Below are positions 1,227-9,269 of a DNA stretch of 12,823 nt, one piece after another. Source of the stretch: Promethearchaeota archaeon (GTDB lineage Archaea > Asgardarchaeota > Lokiarchaeia > Sigyniarchaeales > SOKP01); NCBI GenBank assembly GCA_018238625.1, contig JABCSY010000110.1, positions 1 to 12,823 of the forward strand, read 5' to 3'. The notes beneath the pieces were generated by a model. The model saw only the letters and a program-made list of their open reading frames with translations, made no database searches and was not told where the DNA came from. Every line of letters starts with the position of its first letter. Position 1 is the stretch's first letter. Position numbers and translations under genes: made by a program.

Positions 1227-2516
1227 TCATAGAAGTGTTTGAGTAAACATTTTTATCTTATCTTTAAAGATTTTTTCTGAAGTCATTCGTTTGTCTCCGA
1301 CATCTACATCAATTATAAGCATTGGAATCCCCACTTCGTCCCTTAATGCTTCCCTTAAAATTTGCGGAACGCTTCCAAATTGCTTACAACCTAAGTGAGA
1401 TGTAAAAATAAAACAATCTGCAGTAAATTCTTTTGCCAATCTCACGCAATCGTCAATAAAGGGATAAAAGAATTCTGTTGATTGCTTTATCATTGGAAGA
1501 CTCATACCTTTTTTAGCCATTCCGTAAAATAAAGTATCCAAATCAGATTTTGTATTGATAGGGTCAAAAAAGTTGTAATTAAAAATATCGAATAAAATGC
1601 TCATCCCCAATTCTCGATCTAAATATTCACATAACCCCAAATTGAAGAAAATAATCATGTACGGCCATATACTTCGTATTTTTTCTTCACCACCATGATG
1701 CTCTTTATTTTTATAGCGGAACTTAGCAATTTCAAGCATATCGCGATAAAACTCTAATTTTTCTTCGCGCCCTGACATAAAGGTCGCGGCAGCTGCGGAT
1801 AAAGCGTTAAACATGTTTTCTACGGGACAAGGAGTCGCTTTTTTTAATTCAAATATTTCAAGTTGGATTTTGTTCGTTTCATTTTCTAGTTCAATCTGTT
1901 TTCTCATTTTCTCATAATCAGGCACTTGACCAATTGCTTTACCTAATTCCTCTAAACTTAGCCTTAGTTGTTCTCCATAATAAGTATAGCTTTTTTCTTC
2001 CCAAAGGAACGGTAAATCGGGAGTTATTAAGGGAATATTTTTATGATACCTAAAAAAGGGATAAGAAGCGTAAGTGTTGTCGCACGGCGCGGTTGGCGTG
2101 ATAATTGCGTCAAATCTGAATAAATCGTCAAGTGTCATCCCCATTGTCCCTTTTTGGGAGGAGCATGTGTGGAAGGGATGTCCCCAGCTATTTATTAAAT
2201 CATAGTAGGGTTCAGAACCATCAGGTAATAATGCTGATATGAAATACGAGACCGCTTCAACACAAACGGGCACACAATCAAAGCAATAAAGATAATCTGA
2301 GGGAAAGGCAAAATGGTATCCAATTACAGGTAGCCCTTCTCCCGCTTTTTTGATGAAATCAGCCATTACTAAGTCGATATATTTTAATCCTATCTTCAAT
2401 GCCGGCATTCCATCTTCGGGAAGTATTTTATCAACCAACGCGTATGTAGTGGACACGGCTTGTTTTAACATCTTATAGGGAATTATTCTATTTTCTAATT
2501 TTGATTGATCAACCAT
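1227..2516 (-). CDS. 2-hydroxyacyl-CoA dehydratase / benzoyl-CoA reductase family subunit (HgdA/HadB/BcrB-like alpha type), paralog 2
   Basis: ORF track gives 1227..2534. Three putative [4Fe-4S] Cys ligands (HTCSSQKG, TAPCD, HLGCKQ) and the family C-terminus GIPMLIIDVDVGDKR...KDKIKMF. Starting at ATG 2516 gives 429 aa, gaplessly colinear with the neighbouring paralog, so I prefer that start; 2534 remains possible. Confidence 0.88.
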   Translation of the reverse strand: MVDQSKLENRIIPYKMLKQAVSTTYALVDKILPEDGMPALKIGLKYIDLVMADFIKKAGEGLPVIGYHFAFPSDYLYCFDCVPVCVEAVSYFISALLPDGSEPYYDLINSWGHPFHTCSSQKGTMGMTLDDLFRFDAIITPTAPCDNTYASYPFFRYHKNIPLITPDLPFLWEEKSYTYYGEQLRLSLEELGKAIGQVPDYEKMRKQIELENETNKIQLEIFELKKATPCPVENMFNALSAAAATFMSGREEKLEFYRDMLEIAKFRYKNKEHHGGEEKIRSIWPYMIIFFNLGLCEYLDRELGMSILFDIFNYNFFDPINTKSDLDTLFYGMAKKGMSLPMIKQSTEFFYPFIDDCVRLAKEFTADCFIFTSHLGCKQFGSVPQILREALRDEVGIPMLIIDVDVGDKRMTSEKIFKDKIKMFTQTLL

Positions 2517-2556
2517 AGTTATACCATTTTTCATTTAATTATAATAATAATAAATA

Positions 2557-3846
2557 TTACATGAGCGTTTGTACAAACATAGTTATTTTATCTTTAAAAG
2601 CTTTCAAAGAGGTCATTCGAGCATCTCCTACGTCGAAATCAATTATTAACATAGGAATTCCTACTTCATCGTGAAGAGCTTCTCTTAAAAGTTGTGGGAC
2701 AGCGCCAAATTGTTTACACGCAATACTTTGAGTGTAAATAAAGCAGTCTGCGCTAAAATCTTTAGCCATTCTGATACAATCGTCTAAGAAGGGATAATAG
2801 AATTCCGAAGATTGCTTTACCATCGGCCATCCCATAGCCTTCCTTGCCATTCCGTAAAATAGTGAATTCAAATCAGATTTTGTGTCAATTAAATCTGATA
2901 GATTATAGTTAAAAATATCTAACAAAATGCTCATACCCAATTCGCGATCTAACCATTCACATAAAGAAATATCGAAAAATGTGAGCATATAAGGCCAGAT
3001 GGACCTAACTTTTTCTTCACCTCCATGATGCTCCTTGTTTTTATACCTATTTTTTGCGAGTCCCAACATTCTTTGGTAAAAAGAGAGGTTTTCAGATGTT
3101 CCCGAAATAAATATAGTTGCTGCAGCTGAAATGGGATTAAACATGTTCTCGATTGGGCTCGGAACAGCCTTAATTAAATCAAATAATTCCATTTTTAATT
3201 TTGTTACATCGTTCTCTAATTCCAAAGCGATTCTCATTTTCCCGTAATCGGGTTCTTGACCAATAACTTTACCTAATTCCTCTAAACTTAGCTTTAATTG
3301 TTCTCCATAGTACTTGTAACTTTTTTCCTCGTGAAGAAAAGGCATGTCAGCAATGATTAAAGGATACTTTTTTTGTAATTTAAAAAAAGGGTAAGAGGCG
3401 CATGTGGAGTCACAGGGCGCTGTTGGAGTGATAATCGCGTCAAATTTAAATAAATCTTCCAAACTCATCCCCATCACACCTTTTTGGGCGGAACATGTAT
3501 GAAAAGGGTGCCCCCAATTACCTATTAAATCGTAGTAGGTCTCGACACCGCTTAAAAGTAAAGCACCAAGAAAAAACGAAACCCCTTCAATACAAATTGG
3601 GACGCAATCAAAACATTTTAAGTATTCTGGCTGAAATGCAAAGTGGTATCCCACTATTGGTAATCCTTCTCTTGCTTTTTCGATGTCTTTACGAACCACA
3701 GACAAAACTTCTTCTAATCCAATTCTTAACGAAGGAAGTCCACTATCAGGTAATATCTTATCGATTAATTCATGAGTAGTTGACATCGAATTTAATAACA
3801 TCTGATATGGAATAATCCTATTTCCCATCTCTGTTTTATTAGACAT
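2557..3846 (-). CDS. 2-hydroxyacyl-CoA dehydratase / benzoyl-CoA reductase family subunit (alpha type), paralog 1
   Basis: 429 aa with HTCSAQKG, TAPCD, SIACKQ and GIPMLIIDFDVGDAR motifs. About 67% identical to the downstream paralog (hand count 289/429). Confidence 0.88.
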   Translation of the reverse strand: MSNKTEMGNRIIPYQMLLNSMSTTHELIDKILPDSGLPSLRIGLEEVLSVVRKDIEKAREGLPIVGYHFAFQPEYLKCFDCVPICIEGVSFFLGALLLSGVETYYDLIGNWGHPFHTCSAQKGVMGMSLEDLFKFDAIITPTAPCDSTCASYPFFKLQKKYPLIIADMPFLHEEKSYKYYGEQLKLSLEELGKVIGQEPDYGKMRIALELENDVTKLKMELFDLIKAVPSPIENMFNPISAAATIFISGTSENLSFYQRMLGLAKNRYKNKEHHGGEEKVRSIWPYMLTFFDISLCEWLDRELGMSILLDIFNYNLSDLIDTKSDLNSLFYGMARKAMGWPMVKQSSEFYYPFLDDCIRMAKDFSADCFIYTQSIACKQFGAVPQLLREALHDEVGIPMLIIDFDVGDARMTSLKAFKDKITMFVQTLM

Positions 3847-3892
3847 ATTTTTTATCCAAATTAAATCAGTAAGCTTTTTCCAAATTTTAATA

Positions 3893-5044
3893 CTATTTTA
3901 TCATTTCTAAAAAGGCTTCTATACGCGTTTGAAGTCTCGTTGTGTCTGCTTGGTAGAATTCTCGATCGAGGTCCAAAACTGGGATCTCCAAATCCTTTAG
4001 CCTATGTGAATGGAGCATGTTATCACATCCCGCTAGATCACAGTTGTTTATTCTCTGTAAGATAACGCCATCAATATTGGCTCTGTCAATTTCATTTCTT
4101 AGAAAATCAAATCGCCTTTCATAATCATCCATCATTCTAGGGCAAGAAAGTCTGTAATATAAGCGCTTTGAGATATTTTTTAAAGGGTTACTTCCATCAC
4201 CTATATGTACATCATCTAAAAAATTGCGAGATCCAAAGCATAAAGAATCAGACACTATTAAGGCTCCAGAATCTTCAATTAATCTAGTAAAATCAGTACT
4301 ATCTACTTCACTTCCAACGAGCATTATTCGTTTAATGTTCGATTTAATTCCTTCAGACTCTTTTAAGAATTTGAGAATTCTTTCTAATTCCTGGTTCGCA
4401 AATTCTTTAGGAATTGAGCTATTTGACATCGAAATTTGTAAAGCTTCACTTCCCGTAATTTTTGGCGTATCAATAATTCTTAGTTCATGGATTTTTCGCA
4501 AAAGATCACGATTGTGATTGTATATCTTTATCGAATTATGTAAATCTTGATCAGCTATAATTTGGTGAGTATAAGCTTCTTCTAATTCTTCTTTAAATTC
4601 TTCTATTTCTTTATGGTACCATTCAAAACCTTCATCTGTTATGATGTGAGGCATAGCAATATAAAACCTCGGAACCTTCTTTTCAAAACCTTCTCTTTTG
4701 AACACCTTTAAATCGAAGAGTTCGAACATTCGTCGAGTGTGATCGCACGAATTACAAATAAAAAGACCATCTAAGAAATCATAGCCTCCTCTTAAAGCTA
4801 AATCTAGAGTTGCTCGGACAAATGAGCACGTAAACCTTACCATGTATATGTCAGCTAAATCCGTGTCTTTATTTCCAGTTGCTCGAATTCTGAAAGGTAA
4901 TAAATTTGCTGCGTGCAGCAATTCTTCAGGAATGTAAGTACAATAATGACCAACTACCTTTTTATTCTTTTCTTGCCACCCCTTAACATAAGAGTTCATA
5001 ATTGAATTCGAAATATTAAGAAAAGGATCGTTATTTAGATTCAT
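3893..5044 (-). CDS. 2-hydroxyacyl-CoA dehydratase / benzoyl-CoA reductase family subunit (HgdB/HadC/BcrC-like beta type)
   Basis: 383 aa with KKVVGHYCTYIPEELLHAA, FTCSFVR, ICNSCDH, LCFGSR, SCPRM, NNCD and IPVLDLDREF...RLQTRIEAFLEMI, typical of the HGD-D family. Its ATG overlaps the upstream TGA (ATGA at 5041-5044). Confidence 0.92.
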   Translation of the reverse strand: MNLNNDPFLNISNSIMNSYVKGWQEKNKKVVGHYCTYIPEELLHAANLLPFRIRATGNKDTDLADIYMVRFTCSFVRATLDLALRGGYDFLDGLFICNSCDHTRRMFELFDLKVFKREGFEKKVPRFYIAMPHIITDEGFEWYHKEIEEFKEELEEAYTHQIIADQDLHNSIKIYNHNRDLLRKIHELRIIDTPKITGSEALQISMSNSSIPKEFANQELERILKFLKESEGIKSNIKRIMLVGSEVDSTDFTRLIEDSGALIVSDSLCFGSRNFLDDVHIGDGSNPLKNISKRLYYRLSCPRMMDDYERRFDFLRNEIDRANIDGVILQRINNCDLAGCDNMLHSHRLKDLEIPVLDLDREFYQADTTRLQTRIEAFLEMIK

Positions 5045-5844: not shown

Positions 5845-7767
5845 ATGGGAAAAACTTTAACTGAAAAAATCTTAGAACAACACTTGGTTAACGGAAAATC
5901 AGAACGAGGGTCTGATATTAGCATAAAAATCGATCAGACATTAACTCAAGATGCTACTGGTACAATGGCATATTTGCAATTTGAAGCGATTGGTATTCCA
6001 CGCATTCAAACAGAACTATCAGTTAGTTATGTAGATCACAATACATTACAAACTGATTTTAAAAATCCTGACGATCATAGATATCTACAAAGTATCGCTG
6101 CGAAATATGGACTTTATTTTTCCAGACCTGGTAATGGTATATGCCACCAACTTCATTTAGAGAGGTTTGCTCGACCTGGAAAAACTTTACTTGGTTCGGA
6201 TAGTCATACTCCAACTGGTGGCGGTGTAGGAATGATTGCGATTGGGGCAGGAGGTCTCGACGTAGCAGCGGCAATGGCAGGTGAGGCTTTTCACCTAAAG
6301 ATGCCAAATGTTATTAATGTACACCTTACTGGGAATCTTCCTGACTTTGTATCTGCTAAAGACGTTATATTGGAAGTATTAAGACGTATTGGCGTTAAAG
6401 GGGCAGTTAATAAGGTATTGGAATACACCGGCCCAGGTGTTAAGACTCTAAGTGTACCTGAACGAGGTACAATAACCAACATGGGAACTGAAACGGGAGC
6501 CACGTCCTCAATATTTCCCTCTGACGAGATTACAAAAGAATTTTTAATTGCTCAAGAAAGAGGTGAACAATGGGTCGCCATTGCACCAGACGAAGATGCT
6601 GTATACGACGAAACCATAGAAATAAATCTGAGCGAACTCGTTCCTCTTGTGTCCCTACCTCATAGTCCAGGAAATGTAAAAACTGTAAAAGAAGTTGAAG
6701 GATTAAATGTTGATCAAGTTTGCATTGGGAGTTGTACGAACTCAACTTTACGAGATCTTAAAATTTCTGCTAACATATTAAAGGGAAAAACTATTAGCGA
6801 ACATACGGTTCTAACTGTCTCACCTGGTTCTCGTCAAGTTGTCAACCACATGATTAAATCTGGTGAGATGTCATATTTAATTGAAGCGGGAGCAAGAATT
6901 CTCGAAAACGCATGTGGTCCTTGTATTGGTATGGGGTTGTCGCCAAAAACCGATGCTGTTACGTTAAGAACATTCAATAGAAATTTTCTTGGAAGATCTG
7001 GCACAAAAAGCGCTCAAGCTTACCTTGTAAGCCCTGAAACTGCAGCTGTATCTGCGATTAGTGGAAAGATTACAGACCCAAGAACATTTGGAGCATTACC
7101 AAAAATAGATATGCCCAAAAAGTTTATGGTCAATGATAACATGATTATTCCACCAATGGAAGGCAAAGAGTCCATTGAGATCGTTAGAGGGCCGAATATC
7201 AAACCTTTACCGGAATTCAATCCTTTACCAGACAAATTAAAAGGTGAAGTTCTTCTTAAAGTCGAAGATGATATTACCACTGACCATATAATGCCAGCAG
7301 GTGCCAAAATCTTACCTTTGCGGTCAAATATTCCGGAGATAAGCAAGTTTGTGTTTAACCTTGTTGATCCAACATTTCCAGATAGGTCGTTAGAAAAGCA
7401 AGGAGGTTTTATAGTTGGAGGAGATAACTACGGTCAAGGTTCCAGTAGAGAACACGCTGCCATCGCACCTAAATATCTTGGTCTTAAAGCGGTCATAGTA
7501 AAATCGTTTGCGAGAATTCATTTAGCTAACCTCGTCAACTTTGGAATTGTTCCGTTAACGTTTGAAAACAAAGAGGATTACGCTAAAGTTGAACAAGGAG
7601 ATGAGTTTGAAATCGATCTAACCACAATAGAATCGGGAAAAGTGGCGTTAAAAAACCTTACTAAAGGTACTGAAATACAATTGACTCATTCTTTGAGCGA
7701 AACTGAGCTCAAAGTTTTAAAAGCGGGAGGAAAACTTCCTTTTATTAAGCAAAAACACGTTAATTAG
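5845..7767 (+). CDS. acn: Aconitate hydratase, single-chain ~640-aa type with fused C-terminal swivel domain
   Basis: Motifs TQDATG, VDHN, GNGICHQ, GSDSHT, IGSCTN, ACGPCIG ([4Fe-4S] Cys), RNFLGR, TTDHIMPAG, NYGQGSSREHAA and KSFARIHLANL. The track starts at TTG 5836; ATG 5845 (MGKTLTEKIL, preceded by GGTTGA) is more likely. Exact substrate not determined. Confidence 0.93.
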   Translation: MGKTLTEKILEQHLVNGKSERGSDISIKIDQTLTQDATGTMAYLQFEAIGIPRIQTELSVSYVDHNTLQTDFKNPDDHRYLQSIAAKYGLYFSRPGNGICHQLHLERFARPGKTLLGSDSHTPTGGGVGMIAIGAGGLDVAAAMAGEAFHLKMPNVINVHLTGNLPDFVSAKDVILEVLRRIGVKGAVNKVLEYTGPGVKTLSVPERGTITNMGTETGATSSIFPSDEITKEFLIAQERGEQWVAIAPDEDAVYDETIEINLSELVPLVSLPHSPGNVKTVKEVEGLNVDQVCIGSCTNSTLRDLKISANILKGKTISEHTVLTVSPGSRQVVNHMIKSGEMSYLIEAGARILENACGPCIGMGLSPKTDAVTLRTFNRNFLGRSGTKSAQAYLVSPETAAVSAISGKITDPRTFGALPKIDMPKKFMVNDNMIIPPMEGKESIEIVRGPNIKPLPEFNPLPDKLKGEVLLKVEDDITTDHIMPAGAKILPLRSNIPEISKFVFNLVDPTFPDRSLEKQGGFIVGGDNYGQGSSREHAAIAPKYLGLKAVIVKSFARIHLANLVNFGIVPLTFENKEDYAKVEQGDEFEIDLTTIESGKVALKNLTKGTEIQLTHSLSETELKVLKAGGKLPFIKQKHVN

Positions 7768-7776
7768 ATTAATTTA

Positions 7777-7786
7777 TTTTTTTTTT
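7777..7786 (+). terminator. Oligo-T (T10) archaeal-type terminator after aconitase
   Basis: Run of 10 T starting 10 nt after the TAG stop. Confidence 0.5.
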
Positions 7787-7812
7787 AATTATTTCATTTT
7801 TTAGGTACTATT

Positions 7813-8475
7813 ATGAATAATATTGAAGATGAATATCGTAAAATAATTGAATTTTATCCTAATGCAATTATTGAGAAAGAGTGTATTTCTCAAGTAAAAA
7901 TTCCTTTAAAAAATAAATTCTTTTTGAAAATCAACTTTAAAAATTACCCAAAAAAACCAATTATTAATTTAATTAGTAAAGATGACCAAATTTATCGAAA
8001 AGTTGATAAAATGATTCCATTATTAAATAAATGGGAAAAAAAGAATCCTCCTTCTATCGTTGATCTTATTAGTGAAATTTTAGCTTTCATTAATAGTTTG
8101 GAATCTAAAGAAATAAAAATCAAAAAAGAATTACTAAATGGAATTATCGCGTTATGTAAAAATCAACATCCGAGAGAAATATTAGGACTTCTAAGAATAG
8201 TTAATGGAATCGCTGTAGAATACATTTTGCCTCCGGGATCAATTACATCTAAGAGTTCTGGTCTTTTTATTCCTAGTAGATTGGGTTTTGATTCAACTCT
8301 CAATGGATCTATTCATTCACACCCTTCTGGAAATCCTAATCCGTCTATTATTGATATTAATAACGTTTTTAAAACAAAAAACTTCAATTTTATTGTCGCT
8401 TATCCGTATAATTTGAGCAGTATAAAATGCTTTAATAGAAAAGGACGGGAAATTGAGTTTAGAATAATAAATTAA
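7813..8475 (+). CDS. JAB1/MPN/Mov34 (JAMM/MPN+) metalloprotease fused to an N-terminal UBC/UEV/RWD-like domain
   Basis: The C-terminal half has E122 (HPREILGLL) and H168-S-H170-x7-S178-xx-D181 (GSIHSHPSGNPNPSIID), an intact JAMM motif. The N-terminal ~96 aa has LKINFKNYPKKP and LNKWEKKNPPSIVDLISEI, resembling UBC-fold motifs. An AGGT SD lies at 7803-7806. The JAMM call is strong; the N-domain call is inference. Confidence 0.85.
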   Translation: MNNIEDEYRKIIEFYPNAIIEKECISQVKIPLKNKFFLKINFKNYPKKPIINLISKDDQIYRKVDKMIPLLNKWEKKNPPSIVDLISEILAFINSLESKEIKIKKELLNGIIALCKNQHPREILGLLRIVNGIAVEYILPPGSITSKSSGLFIPSRLGFDSTLNGSIHSHPSGNPNPSIIDINNVFKTKNFNFIVAYPYNLSSIKCFNRKGREIEFRIIN

Positions 8476-8498
8476 AGAAAATATTCATTTAAAGGCAA

Positions 8499-9269
8499 GT
8501 GTGTTATTTGGCAGAAAAGAAATATTTAGCAGATCCTAAGAAAAGATTTTCTTCCAGAGTAGAAAACTATATCAAGTATCGACCGAGCTATCCTCTTGAA
8601 ATTATTGATATCTTGAAAGAGAAGAGAGTCTTAACAGAAAATACTGTAATTGCCGATATTGGTTCAGGTACAGGAATTTTAACAAAAATATTCTTGGATA
8701 ATGGTAATCAAGTTTATGGGGTTGAACCCAATAAAGATATGAGAGAAGCAGCCGAAAAACTCCTGCAAGGATATACAAGATTTTCAAGTCTTGAAGGTTC
8801 TGCTGAGACCACAGGATTAGATGAGAATTGCATAGATCTTATTATTGCTGGACAAGCTTTTCATTGGTTCGATGTAGAAGAGTCTAAGAGAGAATTTAAA
8901 AGAATAATAAAACCGAATGGTAATGTAGCGTTAATCTGGAACAATCGTGGAAAAAGCGGAACAGATTTTAATAGTAGTTATGAAAATTTCATTTTAAAAT
9001 ACGGAACAGATTATAGAGAAATAAAGAAAAATGATGGAAATGTGGATCTCTTTTTTAATTATCAAAAAGAAACATTTTATAATTTTCAAGAATTAGATTT
9101 TACCCATTTTAAAGGCAGGGTCCTTTCTTCATCTTATATTCCTTTAGATGATAATCCCCTTTTCTCAAAAATGATATTGGAATTGGAAGATTTATTTAAG
9201 AAACACCAACAGAATGAAATTATTAGAATTGAATACGATACCGAAATATATCTTGGTAAATTAGTTTAA
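8499..9269 (+). CDS. Class I SAM-dependent methyltransferase (Methyltransf_11-like)
   Basis: Motifs YIKYRPSYP, IADIGSGTG (motif I), GVEPN, IIAGQAFHWF and KRIIKPNG. Start is GTG 8499 or TTG 8508. Confidence 0.92.
   Translation: MCYLAEKKYLADPKKRFSSRVENYIKYRPSYPLEIIDILKEKRVLTENTVIADIGSGTGILTKIFLDNGNQVYGVEPNKDMREAAEKLLQGYTRFSSLEGSAETTGLDENCIDLIIAGQAFHWFDVEESKREFKRIIKPNGNVALIWNNRGKSGTDFNSSYENFILKYGTDYREIKKNDGNVDLFFNYQKETFYNFQELDFTHFKGRVLSSSYIPLDDNPLFSKMILELEDLFKKHQQNEIIRIEYDTEIYLGKLV

What the first reader, a model, noticed from the sequence alone, without database searches (positions are those of the whole stretch)
7813..8475. Single-chain fusion of a Cys-less UBC/UEV-like domain with an intact JAMM isopeptidase: a possible archaeal ubiquitin reader-eraser
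Seen: a complete JAMM motif (E122, H168, H170, S178, D181) preceded by ~96 extra residues. These contain L-x-I-x-F-x-x-Y-P-x-x-P (38-49) and L-x-x-W-x4-P-S-I-x-x-L-I-x-x-I (W74), which echo the E2/UBC YPxxP motif and the Trp-helix segment. There is no HPN motif and no Cys before W74; the only Cys in the domain is C24. Established: typical archaeal JAMM1 desampylases are single-domain; UEV domains are catalytically dead E2 folds that can bind ubiquitin; in eukaryotes JAMM enzymes work alongside UEV proteins as separate subunits (BRCC36 with BRCC45 in BRISC; AMSH with the ESCRT pathway containing TSG101/Vps23). Inference: this could be a fused, substrate-targeted deubiquitylase or de-Ubl-ase in an Asgard-like archaeon. 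It lies among metabolic genes with no Ub/E1/E3 neighbours, so it would act in trans.
Basis: partly seen in the sequence, partly recalled or inferred. Interest (0 to 1): 0.75.

Follow-up and report, generated by a model that had tools for sequence, protein, structure and literature searches.

The report
Cys-less E2-fold domain fused to JAMM protease
An Asgard archaeon encodes a small protein that joins a catalytically dead ubiquitin-E2-like domain to an intact JAMM metalloprotease, an undescribed layout that probably trims ubiquitin-like tags and echoes how eukaryotic JAMM deubiquitinases use E2-like helper subunits.

Summary

- **C-terminal domain.** Residues 100-219 are an AfJAMM (AF2198)-type JAMM domain with E122, H168, H170, S178 and D181 intact (PDB 1oi0, E 1e-15; Foldseek E 7e-9).
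- **N-terminal domain.** Residues 1-99 model confidently (pLDDT 89) as a UBC-superfamily fold. VIA gives Z 9.4 to the VPS37A UEV-like domain and 8.8 to the Tsg101 UEV. The Foldseek list is E2 chains throughout, but weak (best E 0.028).
- **No E2 chemistry.** There is no His in the domain. No Cys lies between YPxxP and the conserved Trp in 0 of 138 relatives.
- **Distribution.** The fusion is conserved. Among 301 genomes of the phylum it was found only in the window's own family and one sister family of the same order. It falls on one side of one branch of the JAMM tree.
- **Context.** There is no conserved neighbour overall. One genus overlaps it with a TtuA/NcsA-like gene, and another has it 3-6 kb from ubiquitin.
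- **Binding test.** A co-fold of the N-domain with the host ubiquitin gave only weak support (0.38 against 0.00).

Most likely this is a ubiquitin-like-protein isopeptidase with a built-in non-catalytic E2-fold docking module. Which Ubl it acts on is open. I rate it a new variant of a known kind.

The parts
7813..8475 (+). Whole gene: 220-aa two-domain protein (UBC-like domain + JAMM domain), stop codon included
   Evidence: ORF list and translation. 62 homologues, mostly 218-225 aa.
7813..8109 (+). N-terminal Cys-less UBC-superfamily domain (residues 1-99): helix 3-14, strands 19-21, 24-31, 36-41, YPKKP loop, strand 50-55, short helices 62-72, helix 82-98
   Evidence: AF2 model pLDDT 89.3, pTM 0.81. 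VIA Z 9.4 to the VPS37A UEV-like domain, 8.8 to the Tsg101 UEV, 8.0 to the GCN2 RWD. The Foldseek list is E2 chains. hhalign to UQ_con-positive domains of Asgard repeat proteins gives prob 91.5%, E 8.7e-7.
7945..7959 (+). Y45-P46-K47-K48-P49 loop between the third and fourth strands (the E2/UEV-type YPxxP motif)
   Evidence: Y45, P46, K47 and P49 are invariant in 29 sequences. P46 and P49 are invariant in 31 N-domains and in 15 distant relatives.
8032..8034 (+). W74, the invariant Trp before the long C-terminal helix of the N-domain
   Evidence: Invariant in alignments A1, A2 and A5.
8110..8472 (+). C-terminal AfJAMM-type JAMM/MPN+ metalloprotease domain (residues 100-220)
   Evidence: phmmer to PDB 1oi0_A, E 9.9e-16, residues 100-219. 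Foldseek to 1oi0/1r5x, E 7e-9 to 2e-8, TM (target) 0.85-0.91. Pfam Prok-JAB 24.8 bits against cut-off 25; 25.8 bits in the genome scan.
8176..8178 (+). E122, the catalytic glutamate of the JAMM motif
   Evidence: Aligned to AfJAMM 'HPDEF'. Kept in at least 90% of 29 sequences.
8314..8355 (+). H168-S-H170-x7-S178-x2-D181, the zinc-binding part of the JAMM motif
   Evidence: Positions. Aligned to AfJAMM 'HSHPS...PSEED'. The HxH...S..D pattern is present in 133 of 142 family sequences.

Best explanation
The gene encodes a soluble two-domain enzyme.

The C-terminal domain is a minimal AfJAMM-type zinc metalloprotease with a complete catalytic motif. By inference, it hydrolyses the peptide or isopeptide bond after the C-terminal Gly-Gly of a ubiquitin-like protein. 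That would mean either removing the tag from modified proteins or trimming a precursor.

The N-terminal domain is a UBC-fold module that has lost, or never had, the E2 catalytic Cys and HPN motif. It joins the protease through one continuous helix and a short linker. By inference, it acts as a built-in non-catalytic docking module that brings a Ubl, or a Ubl-loaded partner, to the protease in trans.

My odds for the substrate are: the host's eukaryote-like ubiquitin about 45%, a SAMP/Urm1-type sulfur-carrier Ubl about 25%, something else about 30%.

Shown here: the gene, both folds as predictions, the intact motif, its conservation, and its restriction to one archaeal order. Inferred: the catalytic activity, the substrate, and the role of the N-domain.
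For: **JAMM domain**
- E 1e-15 to AfJAMM with all motif residues aligned.
- Foldseek E 7e-9, followed by Rpn11, PfJAMM1-SAMP2, CSN5, BRCC36 and a bacterial Ubl-DUB.
- The motif is kept in 133 of 142 family sequences.

**N-domain**
- pLDDT 89.3.
- VIA compared 48,161 chains; the 6 with Z >= 8 are 3 UEV-type domains (VPS37A, Tsg101, Vps23) and 3 E2s, Z 9.4-8.5, with 92-95 of 99 residues aligned. The rest of the list is nearly all E2, UEV or RWD entries.
- Foldseek rows are all E2 chains, or VPS37A once, at probability 0.66-0.97.
- The N-domain profile finds Asgard proteins with 3-4 tandem copies of the domain (E to 3e-18). Pfam scores other copies in those proteins as UQ_con (7 proteins over cut-off) or RWD (10 over cut-off).
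- hhalign to the UQ_con-positive copy gives prob 91.5%, E 8.7e-7 over 88 columns.
- No Cys between YPxxP and the Trp in 0 of 138 sequences.

**Host and family**
- The host has the parts such an enzyme would act on: a free 83-aa ubiquitin ending in GG, a Ub-E1-E2-JAB operon, five ThiS/MoaD-type hits and six E1-like genes.
- That ubiquitin is found in 53 of 61 genomes of the order.
- 15 of 22 aligned orthologues carry residues after GG that need trimming.
- The fusion is one event on the JAMM tree: 34 fused rows on one side of a branch, support 98/90.

**Context hints**
- The gene overlaps a TtuA/NcsA-like gene by 4 nt in 4 of 4 genomes of genus g13.
- It lies 3.2 and 5.9 kb from ubiquitin on the same strand in 2 genomes of genus g10.
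- A JAMM enzyme that deconjugates TtuB from TtuA/TtuC in Thermus is on record (passage read in PMC3980101).

**Co-fold of the N-domain with the host ubiquitin**
- ipSAE 0.38, 0.37 and 0.38 against a best control of 0.00.
- The tool's verdict is 'weak support'. Such marks were reached by 58 of 80 solved complexes and 2 of 110 mismatches. At 0.60 or under, only 7 of those 80 solved ones passed, as did both mismatches.
- The runs agree in at least 96% of contacts, and the partner's pLDDT is at least 83.
- UEV-Ub and E2-Ub complexes are solved, so the pass may be from memory.
Against: - No Ubl, E1, E2 or E3 gene is a conserved neighbour. In 58 loci the commonest neighbours are a thiolase (14 loci), a nucleotidyltransferase (10), aconitase (10) and a methyltransferase (10).
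- The two context hints each rest on a single genus. In g10, restriction-modification genes lie between the gene and ubiquitin.
- The closest solved relative, AfJAMM, cleaved none of the substrates tried, ubiquitin derivatives included (passage read in PMC300881).
- Single-domain members of this JAMM clade sit in archaea that lack ubiquitin by their titles: Methanoperedens, Methanoregulaceae, Thermoplasmata and Bathyarchaeota. This argues for a SAMP-type ancestral substrate.
- No Pfam UQ_con, UEV or RWD model hits the N-domain itself even at E <= 10. Only BRE hits 5 of 31 members, best E 0.0025.
- A PDB profile search found nothing related.
- hhalign to the host's own E2 gave probability 0.9%, E 0.063.
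- The best Foldseek E is only 0.028. The VIA tool notes that a best Z of 7-8 is common for unmatched models.
- The full-length model has pTM 0.59, so the packing of the two domains is uncertain.
- The gene is dispensable. It was not found in, for example, 4 of 4 genomes of genus g4 of the same family, two of them 100% complete.
- The host has seven other JAB-family genes, one of them inside the ubiquitin operon.
Confidence: 0.6

Rival explanations
1. It is a desampylase-type enzyme of the SAMP/Urm1-TtuB sulfur-carrier pathway, not of ubiquitin. The JAMM domain removes the sulfur-carrier Ubl from NcsA/TtuA, the E1 and other targets. The UBC-like domain docks on the E1-like or NcsA/TtuA protein.
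For: - The JAMM domain belongs to the clade found as a single domain in archaea without ubiquitin.
- In 4 of 4 genomes of genus g13 the gene starts 4 nt inside the end of a TtuA/NcsA-like PP-loop gene, and in G288 a ThiF gene lies 3.5 kb away.
- A Thermus JAMM mutant accumulates TtuB conjugates of TtuA/TtuC (passage in PMC3980101).
- The host has five ThiS/MoaD hits and six ThiF genes.
Against: - The coupling is seen in one genus only. In the window's genome the NcsA-like gene is on another contig, C22.
- SAMP/Urm1 systems need no E2 (established knowledge), so recruiting a UBC fold is unexplained.
- NCBIfam's haloarchaeal desampylase model scores 13 bits against a cut-off of 130.
- The host has a separate single-domain Prok-JAB gene of 164 aa that could do this job.
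Confidence: 0.25
2. The N-domain is not a Ubl reader but an RWD-like protein-protein adaptor. It dimerises the enzyme, pairs it with the catalytically dead paralogue, or tethers it to an E2, E3 or a substrate complex. Ubl recognition is left to the JAMM domain alone.
For: - The fold matches RWD domains about as well as UEV domains (GCN2 Z 8.0, RWDD1 7.6, FANCL 7.2, kinetochore RWDs 7.0).
- The closest sequence relatives are internal copies in multi-UBC/RWD proteins with RING-like ends.
- A conserved paralogue clade keeps the N-domain but has lost the catalytic E and both His. It co-occurs with the active form in G071, G083, G113, G174 and G313. This recalls MPN+/MPN- pairs.
- The co-fold with ubiquitin was only weak.
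Against: - The window's genome has no dead paralogue that I could find.
- Four genomes (G231, G258, G264, G270; completeness 83-100%) showed only the dead form, so pairing is not obligatory.
- The motif spacing is Y-P-x-x-P as in E2/UEV, not the Y-P-x-x-x-P that I recall for RWD.
Confidence: 0.3
3. It does not act on Ubl conjugates at all. The JAMM domain cleaves some other peptide or amide substrate, or is inactive in vivo, and the fusion has no ubiquitin-related role.
For: - AfJAMM showed no activity on any tested substrate.
- The neighbours in the window are peptidases and metabolic enzymes.
- There is no conserved Ubl context in 58 loci.
Against: - Every characterised JAMM/MPN+ enzyme in the structure hits acts at a Ubl C-terminus (Rpn11, CSN5, BRCC36, PfJAMM1, CsRpn11, the bacterial Ubl-DUB).
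- The catalytic residues are under selection (133 of 142).
- The partner domain is of the one fold dedicated to Ubl handling.
Confidence: 0.1

Closest known systems
AfJAMM (AF2198, PDB 1oi0/1r5x), the minimal archaeal JAMM domain
   Same: Residues 100-219 align end to end (E 1e-15). E, HxH, S and D are conserved. The minimal fold is the same (TM 0.85-0.91 on the target).
   Different: AfJAMM is a single domain of 124 aa, whereas this protein carries 99 extra N-terminal residues forming a UBC fold. AfJAMM has no known substrate.
Archaeal desampylases HvJAMM1 / PfJAMM1 (PDB 5ld9, 5lda)
   Same: Single-chain prokaryotic JAMM isopeptidases that act in trans on Ubl conjugates. The structural match is Foldseek E 1.6e-3 to 1.8e-3.
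   Different: They are single-domain. The NCBIfam desampylase model scores 13 bits against a cut-off of 130. The host has a separate 164-aa Prok-JAB gene.
UEV domains (Tsg101/Vps23, VPS37A UEV-like, Mms2)
   Same: A UBC fold without the catalytic Cys. These are the best structural matches: Z 9.4, 8.8 and 8.7, with 92-95 residues aligned. The motif is of the YPxxP type.
   Different: There is no Pfam UEV hit. The domain is shorter (99 aa) and ends after the first long helix. Ubiquitin binding has only weak co-fold support. It is fused to a protease, not to an ESCRT-I stalk.
BRISC / BRCA1-A (BRCC36 JAMM + Abraxas MPN- + BRCC45 tandem UEV)
   Same: A JAMM protease working with Cys-less UBC-fold modules, and in some genomes an MPN-minus-like paralogue. 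BRCC45 (6h3c_C) matches at Z 7.3. Pfam BRE gives weak hits to 5 of 31 N-domains.
   Different: In eukaryotes these are separate subunits, and the JAMM is of the Rpn11/BRCC36 type (PF01398), which does not hit this protein. The resemblance is one of layout; I have no evidence of descent.
Bacterial E2-E1-JAB triple-module proteins and RWD-like inactive E2 domains in Ubl operons (Iyer, Burroughs, Aravind 2006; passages read); Bil/CBASS JAB enzymes
   Same: UBC-fold and JAB domains combined in one polypeptide or operon. Inactive E2-like domains there were predicted to bind Ub-like moieties.
   Different: Those carry an E1 domain and a Cys-bearing E2, sit in conserved operons and are bacterial. Here there is no E1 domain, no Cys and no operon, and the range is one Asgard order. 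The PADLOC JAB models hit only the short zinc-site stretch (best E 4.3e-6).

Membership tests
JAMM/MPN+ metalloproteases (Pfam Prok-JAB PF14464, AfJAMM type) | E-x(n)-H-S/T-H-x7-S-x2-D motif | tested here: met
   E122, H168-S-H170, S178 and D181, aligned to the AfJAMM motif. Present in 133 of 142 family sequences.
JAMM/MPN+ metalloproteases (Pfam Prok-JAB PF14464, AfJAMM type) | Significant sequence and fold similarity to a solved JAMM domain | tested here: met
   1oi0_A E 9.9e-16. Foldseek E 7.1e-9, TM (target) 0.85-0.91. Pfam scores 24.8 bits against cut-off 25 in hmmscan and 25.8 bits in the genome scan; relatives score 27-38 bits.
JAMM/MPN+ metalloproteases (Pfam Prok-JAB PF14464, AfJAMM type) | Zinc-dependent hydrolysis at a Ubl C-terminus | not testable with these tools
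   Needs an enzyme assay. The nearest solved relative gave negative assays.
E2 ubiquitin-conjugating enzymes (Pfam UQ_con PF00179) | UBC alpha/beta fold with a YPxxP(P) loop between strands 3 and 4 | tested here: met
   Model. Foldseek and VIA lists. YPKKP is invariant.
E2 ubiquitin-conjugating enzymes (Pfam UQ_con PF00179) | Catalytic Cys preceded by an HPN motif | tested here: not met
   No His in residues 1-99. No Cys between YPxxP and W in 0 of 138 sequences. Not an E2 enzyme.
E2 ubiquitin-conjugating enzymes (Pfam UQ_con PF00179) | Match to the family HMM | tested here: not met
   No UQ_con hit for any of 31 N-domains at E <= 10. The only link is indirect, through hhalign to UQ_con-positive paralogous domains (prob 91.5%).
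UEV domains (Pfam PF05743) | UBC fold lacking the catalytic Cys | tested here: met
   The top VIA rows are UEV-type domains.
UEV domains (Pfam PF05743) | Match to the family HMM | tested here: inconclusive
   No UEV hit at E <= 10. The genome-wide UEV search rang nowhere, controls included.
UEV domains (Pfam PF05743) | Non-covalent ubiquitin binding | tested here: inconclusive
   Co-fold of the N-domain with the host ubiquitin: 0.38 against a best control of 0.00, the tool's verdict 'weak support'. Needs NMR or ITC.
RWD domains (Pfam PF05773) | Y-P-x-x-x-P loop (definition recalled, not from a call) and a match to the family HMM | tested here: not met
   The spacing here is Y-P-x-x-P. No RWD hit for 31 N-domains. 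hhalign to RWD-positive copies gives only prob 24.8%. The fold similarity to RWD is real (Z 7.3-8.0).
Haloarchaeal desampylase (NCBIfam NF041370) | Score over the equivalog cut-off | tested here: not met
   13 bits against a cut-off of 130.
Eukaryote-type JAB (Pfam PF01398: Rpn11/CSN5/BRCC36) | Match to the family HMM | tested here: not met
   Not among the hits for this protein at E <= 0.1. The genome scan lists six other loci but not this one.

The most novel reading that the evidence does not exclude
One order of Asgard archaea invented a single-chain 'reader-eraser' deubiquitinase. A UEV-like domain holds one ubiquitin (or the ubiquitinated target) while the fused minimal JAMM domain cuts the isopeptide bond. 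In some genomes it pairs with a catalytically dead paralogue that has the same two domains. That would be a prokaryotic counterpart of the MPN+/MPN-/UEV logic of BRISC and of the JAMM-ESCRT link, arising where the eukaryotic ubiquitin system has its roots.
Probability: 0.2. Interest if true: 0.75.

Novelty: new variant of a known kind. Interest (0 to 1): 0.55.

Why it matters
JAMM deubiquitinases in eukaryotes are nearly always steered by partner subunits: MPN-minus proteins, UEV/RWD scaffolds and ESCRT adaptors. How that dependence arose is unknown.

Here the steering-type fold and the protease are one 220-residue chain. It occurs in the archaeal group closest to eukaryotes that also has a highly conserved ubiquitin.

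If the N-domain does bind ubiquitin, this is a minimal and tractable model for substrate-targeted JAMM enzymes. It would also show that Cys-less E2 folds were already being reused as ubiquitin readers in Asgard archaea outside ESCRT-I.

If the enzyme instead serves the SAMP/Urm1-NcsA pathway, it would be the first UBC-fold domain tied to a pathway that is thought to need no E2. Either result is testable with two small soluble proteins.

It would also give a first functional handle on the AfJAMM clade, whose substrate has been unknown since 2003.

Tried and rejected
**Searches that found nothing**
- Profile search of PDB sequences with the N-domain: four unrelated hits, E >= 0.4.
- ESM Atlas with the N-domain alone: no usable hit. 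With the whole protein it found only the protein's own Prok-JAB cluster (score 0.96), then bacterial Prok-JAB clusters below 0.9.
- NCBIfam and PADLOC hold no model for the N-domain. I therefore dropped the idea that this is a CBASS/Bil-type defence JAB: there are only short zinc-site matches, and no E1/E2/Ubl operon.
- Pfam UEV in the own genome: no hit, but the control genomes did not ring either, so this is uninformative.
- hhalign of the N-domain profile against the host's single E2 sequence: probability 0.9%. It did place YPKKP on the E2's YPKQPP.

**Gene context**
- Neighbour clustering over 58 loci gave no family-wide partner.
- The own genome's NcsA-like gene is on contig C22, unlinked to this gene.

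**Expression**
- One metatranscriptome run (X20) has contigs 90-95% alike over 7357-7849 and 8008-8475. These come from a relative, not this strain. The tool warns that presence in an RNA library does not show transcription, so I draw no conclusion.

**Tools and sources not available**
- The co-fold queue was full ten times before the job was accepted (accepted).
- Supplements of papers are closed. The Asgard UEV-like and RWD-like sequences in SI Fig. S3 of PMC6601020, and the asCOG tables of the Asgard surveys (recalled, not read), may already list this family.
Full report
**1. The observation**

The window has an ORF at 7813..8475 on the + strand, with an ATG start, encoding 220 aa. C24, L38, I40, F42, Y45, P46, P49, W74, E122, H168, H170, S178 and D181 are all as stated.

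The only Cys are at 24, 115 and 206, and the only His at 119, 168 and 170. So the first 99 residues have no His (no HPN motif) and one Cys.

There are two small corrections. The second motif has two prolines (W74-x4-P79-P80-S81-I82). The extra N-terminal part is about 99 residues, because AfJAMM aligns from residue 100.

The neighbours are an aconitase, a SAM methyltransferase, a Pab87-like beta-lactamase-fold peptidase, an S9 peptidase, three HGD-D genes and a sulfatase.

**2. It is a real, conserved gene**

A search of 5.8 billion proteins (121-385 aa only) gave 62 relatives at E <= 1e-3, mostly 218-225 aa long. Where named, the sources call them Lokiarchaeota, Promethearchaeota, Hermodarchaeota or Hodarchaeota proteins, 'Mov34/MPN/PAD-1 family' or 'hypothetical'.

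In 29 aligned sequences Y45, P46, K47, P49, L71 and W74 are invariant. E122, H168, H170, S178 and D181 are kept in at least 90%.

**3. The C-terminal domain**

- Residues 100-219 match the solved AfJAMM (AF2198; 1oi0_A E 9.9e-16, 1r5x_A E 1.4e-15), with the whole motif aligned.
- Pfam Prok-JAB scores 24.8 bits against a cut-off of 25. The genome scan gives 25.8 bits, and relatives score 27-38 bits.
- The full-length AF2 model (pLDDT 82.7, pTM 0.59) hits 1oi0/1r5x at Foldseek E 7e-9 to 2e-8 with target TM 0.85-0.91.
- Below these come Rpn11, PfJAMM1 with and without SAMP2, a bacterial Ubl-deubiquitinase, CSN5, BRCC36 and Caldiarchaeum Rpn11.
- PF01398, the eukaryote-type JAB model, does not hit this protein. 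It does hit six other genes of the genome.

**4. The N-terminal domain**

Modelled alone with 31 aligned N-domains taken from related loci, it gives pLDDT 89.3 and pTM 0.81. The layout is helix 3-14, strands 19-21, 24-31 and 36-41, the YPKKP loop, strand 50-55, short helices 62-72 and a long helix 82-98.

*Structure searches*
- Foldseek against the PDB found nothing at E <= 0.001. However, every listed row is an E2 chain or, once, the VPS37A UEV-like domain. The best E is 0.028, probability 0.66-0.97, query TM 0.43-0.56.
- VIA-align against 48,161 representative chains gave:

| Match | Z | rmsd (Å) | aligned |
|---|---|---|---|
| VPS37A UEV-like | 9.4 | 3.2 | 92 |
| Tsg101 UEV | 8.8 | 3.0 | 94 |
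| Ubc8 | 8.8 | 3.7 | 95 |
| Plasmodium falciparum E2 (2h2y) | 8.7 | 2.9 | 92 |
| Vps23 UEV | 8.7 | 3.0 | 95 |
| GCN2 RWD | 8.0 | 2.9 | 92 |
| BRCC45 in BRISC | 7.3 | 3.4 | 94 |
| FANCL central domain (3zqs) | 7.2 | 3.1 | 84 |
| Bacterial Bil E2 | 6.9 | 2.9 | 90 |

- By their titles nearly all 50 rows are E2, UEV or RWD entries.
- The tool warns that a best Z of 7-8 is common for unmatched models. The weight therefore lies on the uniformity of both lists and the full-length coverage, not on the scores.

*Sequence evidence is thinner*
- No Pfam UQ_con, UEV or RWD hit for any of the 31 N-domains, even at E <= 10. BRE (BRCC45) hits 5 of 31, best E 0.0025.
- A PDB profile search found nothing related.
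- hhalign to the host's own E2 gave probability 0.9%.

*An indirect link holds*
- The N-domain profile, run over 1.84 billion representatives, found 78 proteins at E <= 1e-3.
- Among the 71 of these that I scanned, many are proteins of 350-700 aa with three or four tandem copies of the domain.
- Pfam scores other copies in the same proteins as UQ_con (7 proteins over the cut-off) or RWD (10 over the cut-off), some with RING fingers.
- hhalign of the N-domain profile to the UQ_con-positive first copy gives probability 91.5%, E 8.7e-7 over 88 columns. To the second copy it gives 98.2%, E 3e-14. To the RWD-positive last copy it gives only 24.8%.

*No E2 chemistry.* No sequence has a Cys between the YPxxP loop and the conserved Trp (0 of 138; loci and database proteins overlap in part).

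I conclude that this is a non-catalytic member of the UBC superfamily. Whether to call it UEV or RWD cannot be settled here. The Y-P-x-x-P spacing is the E2/UEV one by my recollection of the motifs.

**5. Range and origin of the fusion**

- In the species-representative genome collection, 57 loci encode the full two-domain protein. All carry Asgard titles, except one record titled as a Nanopelagicaceae bacterium.
- There, 16 loci match residues 101-220 only: 15 from Methanoperedens, Methanoregulaceae, Thermoplasmata, a Bathyarchaeota genome and one record titled only 'uncultured archaeon', plus one from a Jordarchaeum.
- In a sample of 301 genomes of the window's phylum, full-length matches occur in 43 genomes. 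37 are in the window's own family f1 and 6 in family f2 of the same order. Three more are cut at contig ends.
- Families f10, f15, f21 and f22 have the JAMM part only.
- Within f1 the gene is patchy. For example, none was found in 4 of 4 genomes of genus g4, two of them 100% complete.
- On a tree of 61 JAMM domains, the 34 fused rows lie on one side of one branch (support 98/90; 96% of bootstrap trees). This is consistent with a single fusion. The root is not known.
- More distant relatives (28-36% identity) keep both domains, with P46, P49 and W74 invariant.
- One variant adds an AN1 zinc finger and TPR repeats in front (P0130).

**6. What the host offers as substrates**

The genome (97.9% complete, 7.6% contamination) contains:
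- a free ubiquitin of 83 aa ending in GG on contig C7;
- an operon on C50 with a ubiquitin-like protein ending AGYF, an E1, an E2, an Rpn11-like JAB and a membrane protein with a Cys-rich tail;
- two more ubiquitin-domain proteins next to that operon;
- eight JAB-family loci in all, five ThiS/MoaD hits and six ThiF genes.

The free ubiquitin is found in 53 of 61 genomes of the order, at 94-100% identity within the family. 15 of 22 aligned orthologues carry one to eight residues after GG, so a trimming peptidase is needed in many relatives.

**7. Gene context**

Over 58 loci there is no family-wide neighbour. The commonest are a thiolase (14 loci), a nucleotidyltransferase (10), aconitase (10), a methyltransferase (10), a Ras-like GTPase (8), TatD (7) and an FMN reductase (7).

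There are two genus-level exceptions in family f2.
- In 4 of 4 genomes of genus g13, the gene overlaps by 4 nt the end of a TtuA/NcsA-like PP-loop gene. In G288 a ThiF gene and Pus10 are nearby.
- In 2 genomes of genus g10, it lies 3.2 and 5.9 kb from the ubiquitin gene on the same strand. A HAD-like gene and restriction-modification genes lie between them. A third genome's contig ends inside the R-M gene next to the ubiquitin gene, before the place where this gene would lie.

Each exception is one evolutionary event, so these are hints and no more. They also point to different Ubls.

**8. Co-fold**

- Scores were 0.38, 0.37 and 0.38; the best of three controls was 0.00.
- The tool's verdict was 'weak support'. 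The mark was reached by 58 of 80 solved complexes and 2 of 110 mismatches. At 0.60 or under, only 7 of those 80 passed, as did both mismatches.
- The runs agree in at least 96% of contacts, and the partner's pLDDT is at least 83.
- No contacts were given.
- UEV-ubiquitin and E2-ubiquitin complexes are solved, so likeness may explain the pass.

This raises my odds a little.

**9. Mechanism and rivals**

Best reading (0.6): a Ubl-directed JAMM isopeptidase or processing peptidase whose fused Cys-less UBC fold is a docking module.

For ubiquitin as substrate:
- the UBC fold is the ubiquitin-handling fold;
- SAMP/Urm1 pathways need no E2 (established knowledge);
- the fusion exists only in an order with a highly conserved ubiquitin;
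- there is the g10 hint and the weak co-fold.

For a SAMP/Urm1-type substrate:
- the ancestry of the JAMM clade;
- the g13 overlap with TtuA/NcsA;
- the Thermus precedent of a JAMM that deconjugates TtuB from TtuA/TtuC (passage read, PMC3980101).

Against any confident claim of activity: AfJAMM cleaved nothing in vitro, ubiquitin derivatives included (passage read, PMC300881).

The adaptor rival (0.3) is fed by a conserved paralogue clade that keeps the N-domain but has lost the catalytic Glu and both His.
- It is seen in L059, L128, L131, L148-L154, P0062, P0065 and P0070.
- It co-occurs with the active form in G071, G083, G113, G174 and G313.
- It stands alone in G231, G258, G264 and G270.
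- It was not found in the window's genome.

**10. What is known**

Four full-text searches for an Asgard or archaeal UEV/RWD/E2-JAB combination found no description of this architecture. So did one search for hyphenated names (UEV-JAB, UBC-JAB, RWD-JAB, E2-JAB, UEV-MPN, UEV-JAMM).

From passages I read:
- Asgard archaea are said to have several E2s, one Uev-like homologue and one RWD-like domain (PMC6601020).
- UEV-Vps23 proteins bind ubiquitin, and a Jab1/MPN gene sits in one ubiquitin cluster (bioRxiv 10.1101/2023.07.25.550441).
- The ESCRT survey derives UEV from E2 (PMC10936438).
- Bacterial E2-E1-JAB triple fusions and RWD-like inactive E2 domains in Ubl operons were predicted in 2006 (PMC1779556; restated in PMC11354881).

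None of these is this layout. Pfam, NCBIfam and PADLOC hold no model for the N-domain. Supplements were closed, so an asCOG number or an SI tree may already include the family.

**11. Verdict**

The fold assignment is supported. The 'reader-eraser' function is plausible but unproven. This is a new domain architecture built from two known kinds of domain, restricted to one Asgard order. It is of clear interest for the evolution of steered JAMM deubiquitinases and is easy to test. Interest 0.55.

Noticed in passing
L059, L128 (G165:C2), L131 (G237), L148-L154 (G071, G264, G231, G113, G083, G270, G258); P0062, P0065, P0070: A conserved paralogue clade has the same two-domain layout, but the catalytic Glu and both zinc-binding His are replaced (a 'GTFISRPSG'-type stretch). 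This is an MPN-minus-like pseudoenzyme. It co-occurs with the active form in five genomes, stands alone in four, and was not found in the window's genome.
   Followed up: partly
G000:C21:4682-5569 (-) = L089; P0066, P0067, P0073, P0084, P0090 and others: Asgard proteins with three or four tandem Cys-less UBC/RWD-like domains, often ending in a RING-like Cys/His cluster. The layout is reminiscent of FANCL. The window's genome has one, cut by the contig end.
   Followed up: partly
P0130 (481 aa); G165:C17:498173-498826 in a 497-aa frame: A longer variant of the family: AN1 zinc finger + TPR repeats + UBC-like domain + Prok-JAB.
   Followed up: no
G000:C50, L087 6644-13089: The host's ubiquitin operon: a Ub-like protein of 111 aa ending AGYF, E1 (ThiF), E2 (UQ_con), an Rpn11-like JAB, and a 372-aa multi-pass membrane protein with a Cys-rich C-terminus. 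Upstream lie a 125-aa Ub-like protein ending AG and a 261-aa membrane protein with a C-terminal Ub-like domain.
   Followed up: partly
A3/A4 (ubiquitin orthologues of the order): 15 of 22 aligned orthologues of the free ubiquitin carry 1-8 residues after the C-terminal GG. The window's genome encodes the mature GG end.
   Followed up: no
L129, L132, L133, L134 (genus g13); L125, L126, L127 (genus g10): Genus-specific contexts of the fused gene. In g13 there is a 4-nt overlap with a TtuA/NcsA-like gene. In g10 the order is ubiquitin, Type ISP/Eco57I-like restriction-modification gene(s), a HAD-like gene, then the fused gene, all on one strand.
   Followed up: yes
L003 (DATKTW010000007.1): A contig that encodes the protein at 87% identity, with Asgard-type neighbours, belongs to a record titled 'Candidatus Nanopelagicaceae bacterium'. 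It is probably a mis-binned contig.
   Followed up: no
window 8477-9258: One contig of DNA run X1 joins 8477 to 9258. It skips 780 bases that hold the methyltransferase gene just downstream, so a strain variant without that gene seems to exist (table 5).
   Followed up: no
window 1227-5044 (-): Three consecutive HGD-D (2-hydroxyacyl-CoA dehydratase D-component) genes and a 167-aa ORF lie upstream of the aconitase. This block and the aconitase travel with the fused gene only in the closest relatives.
   Followed up: no
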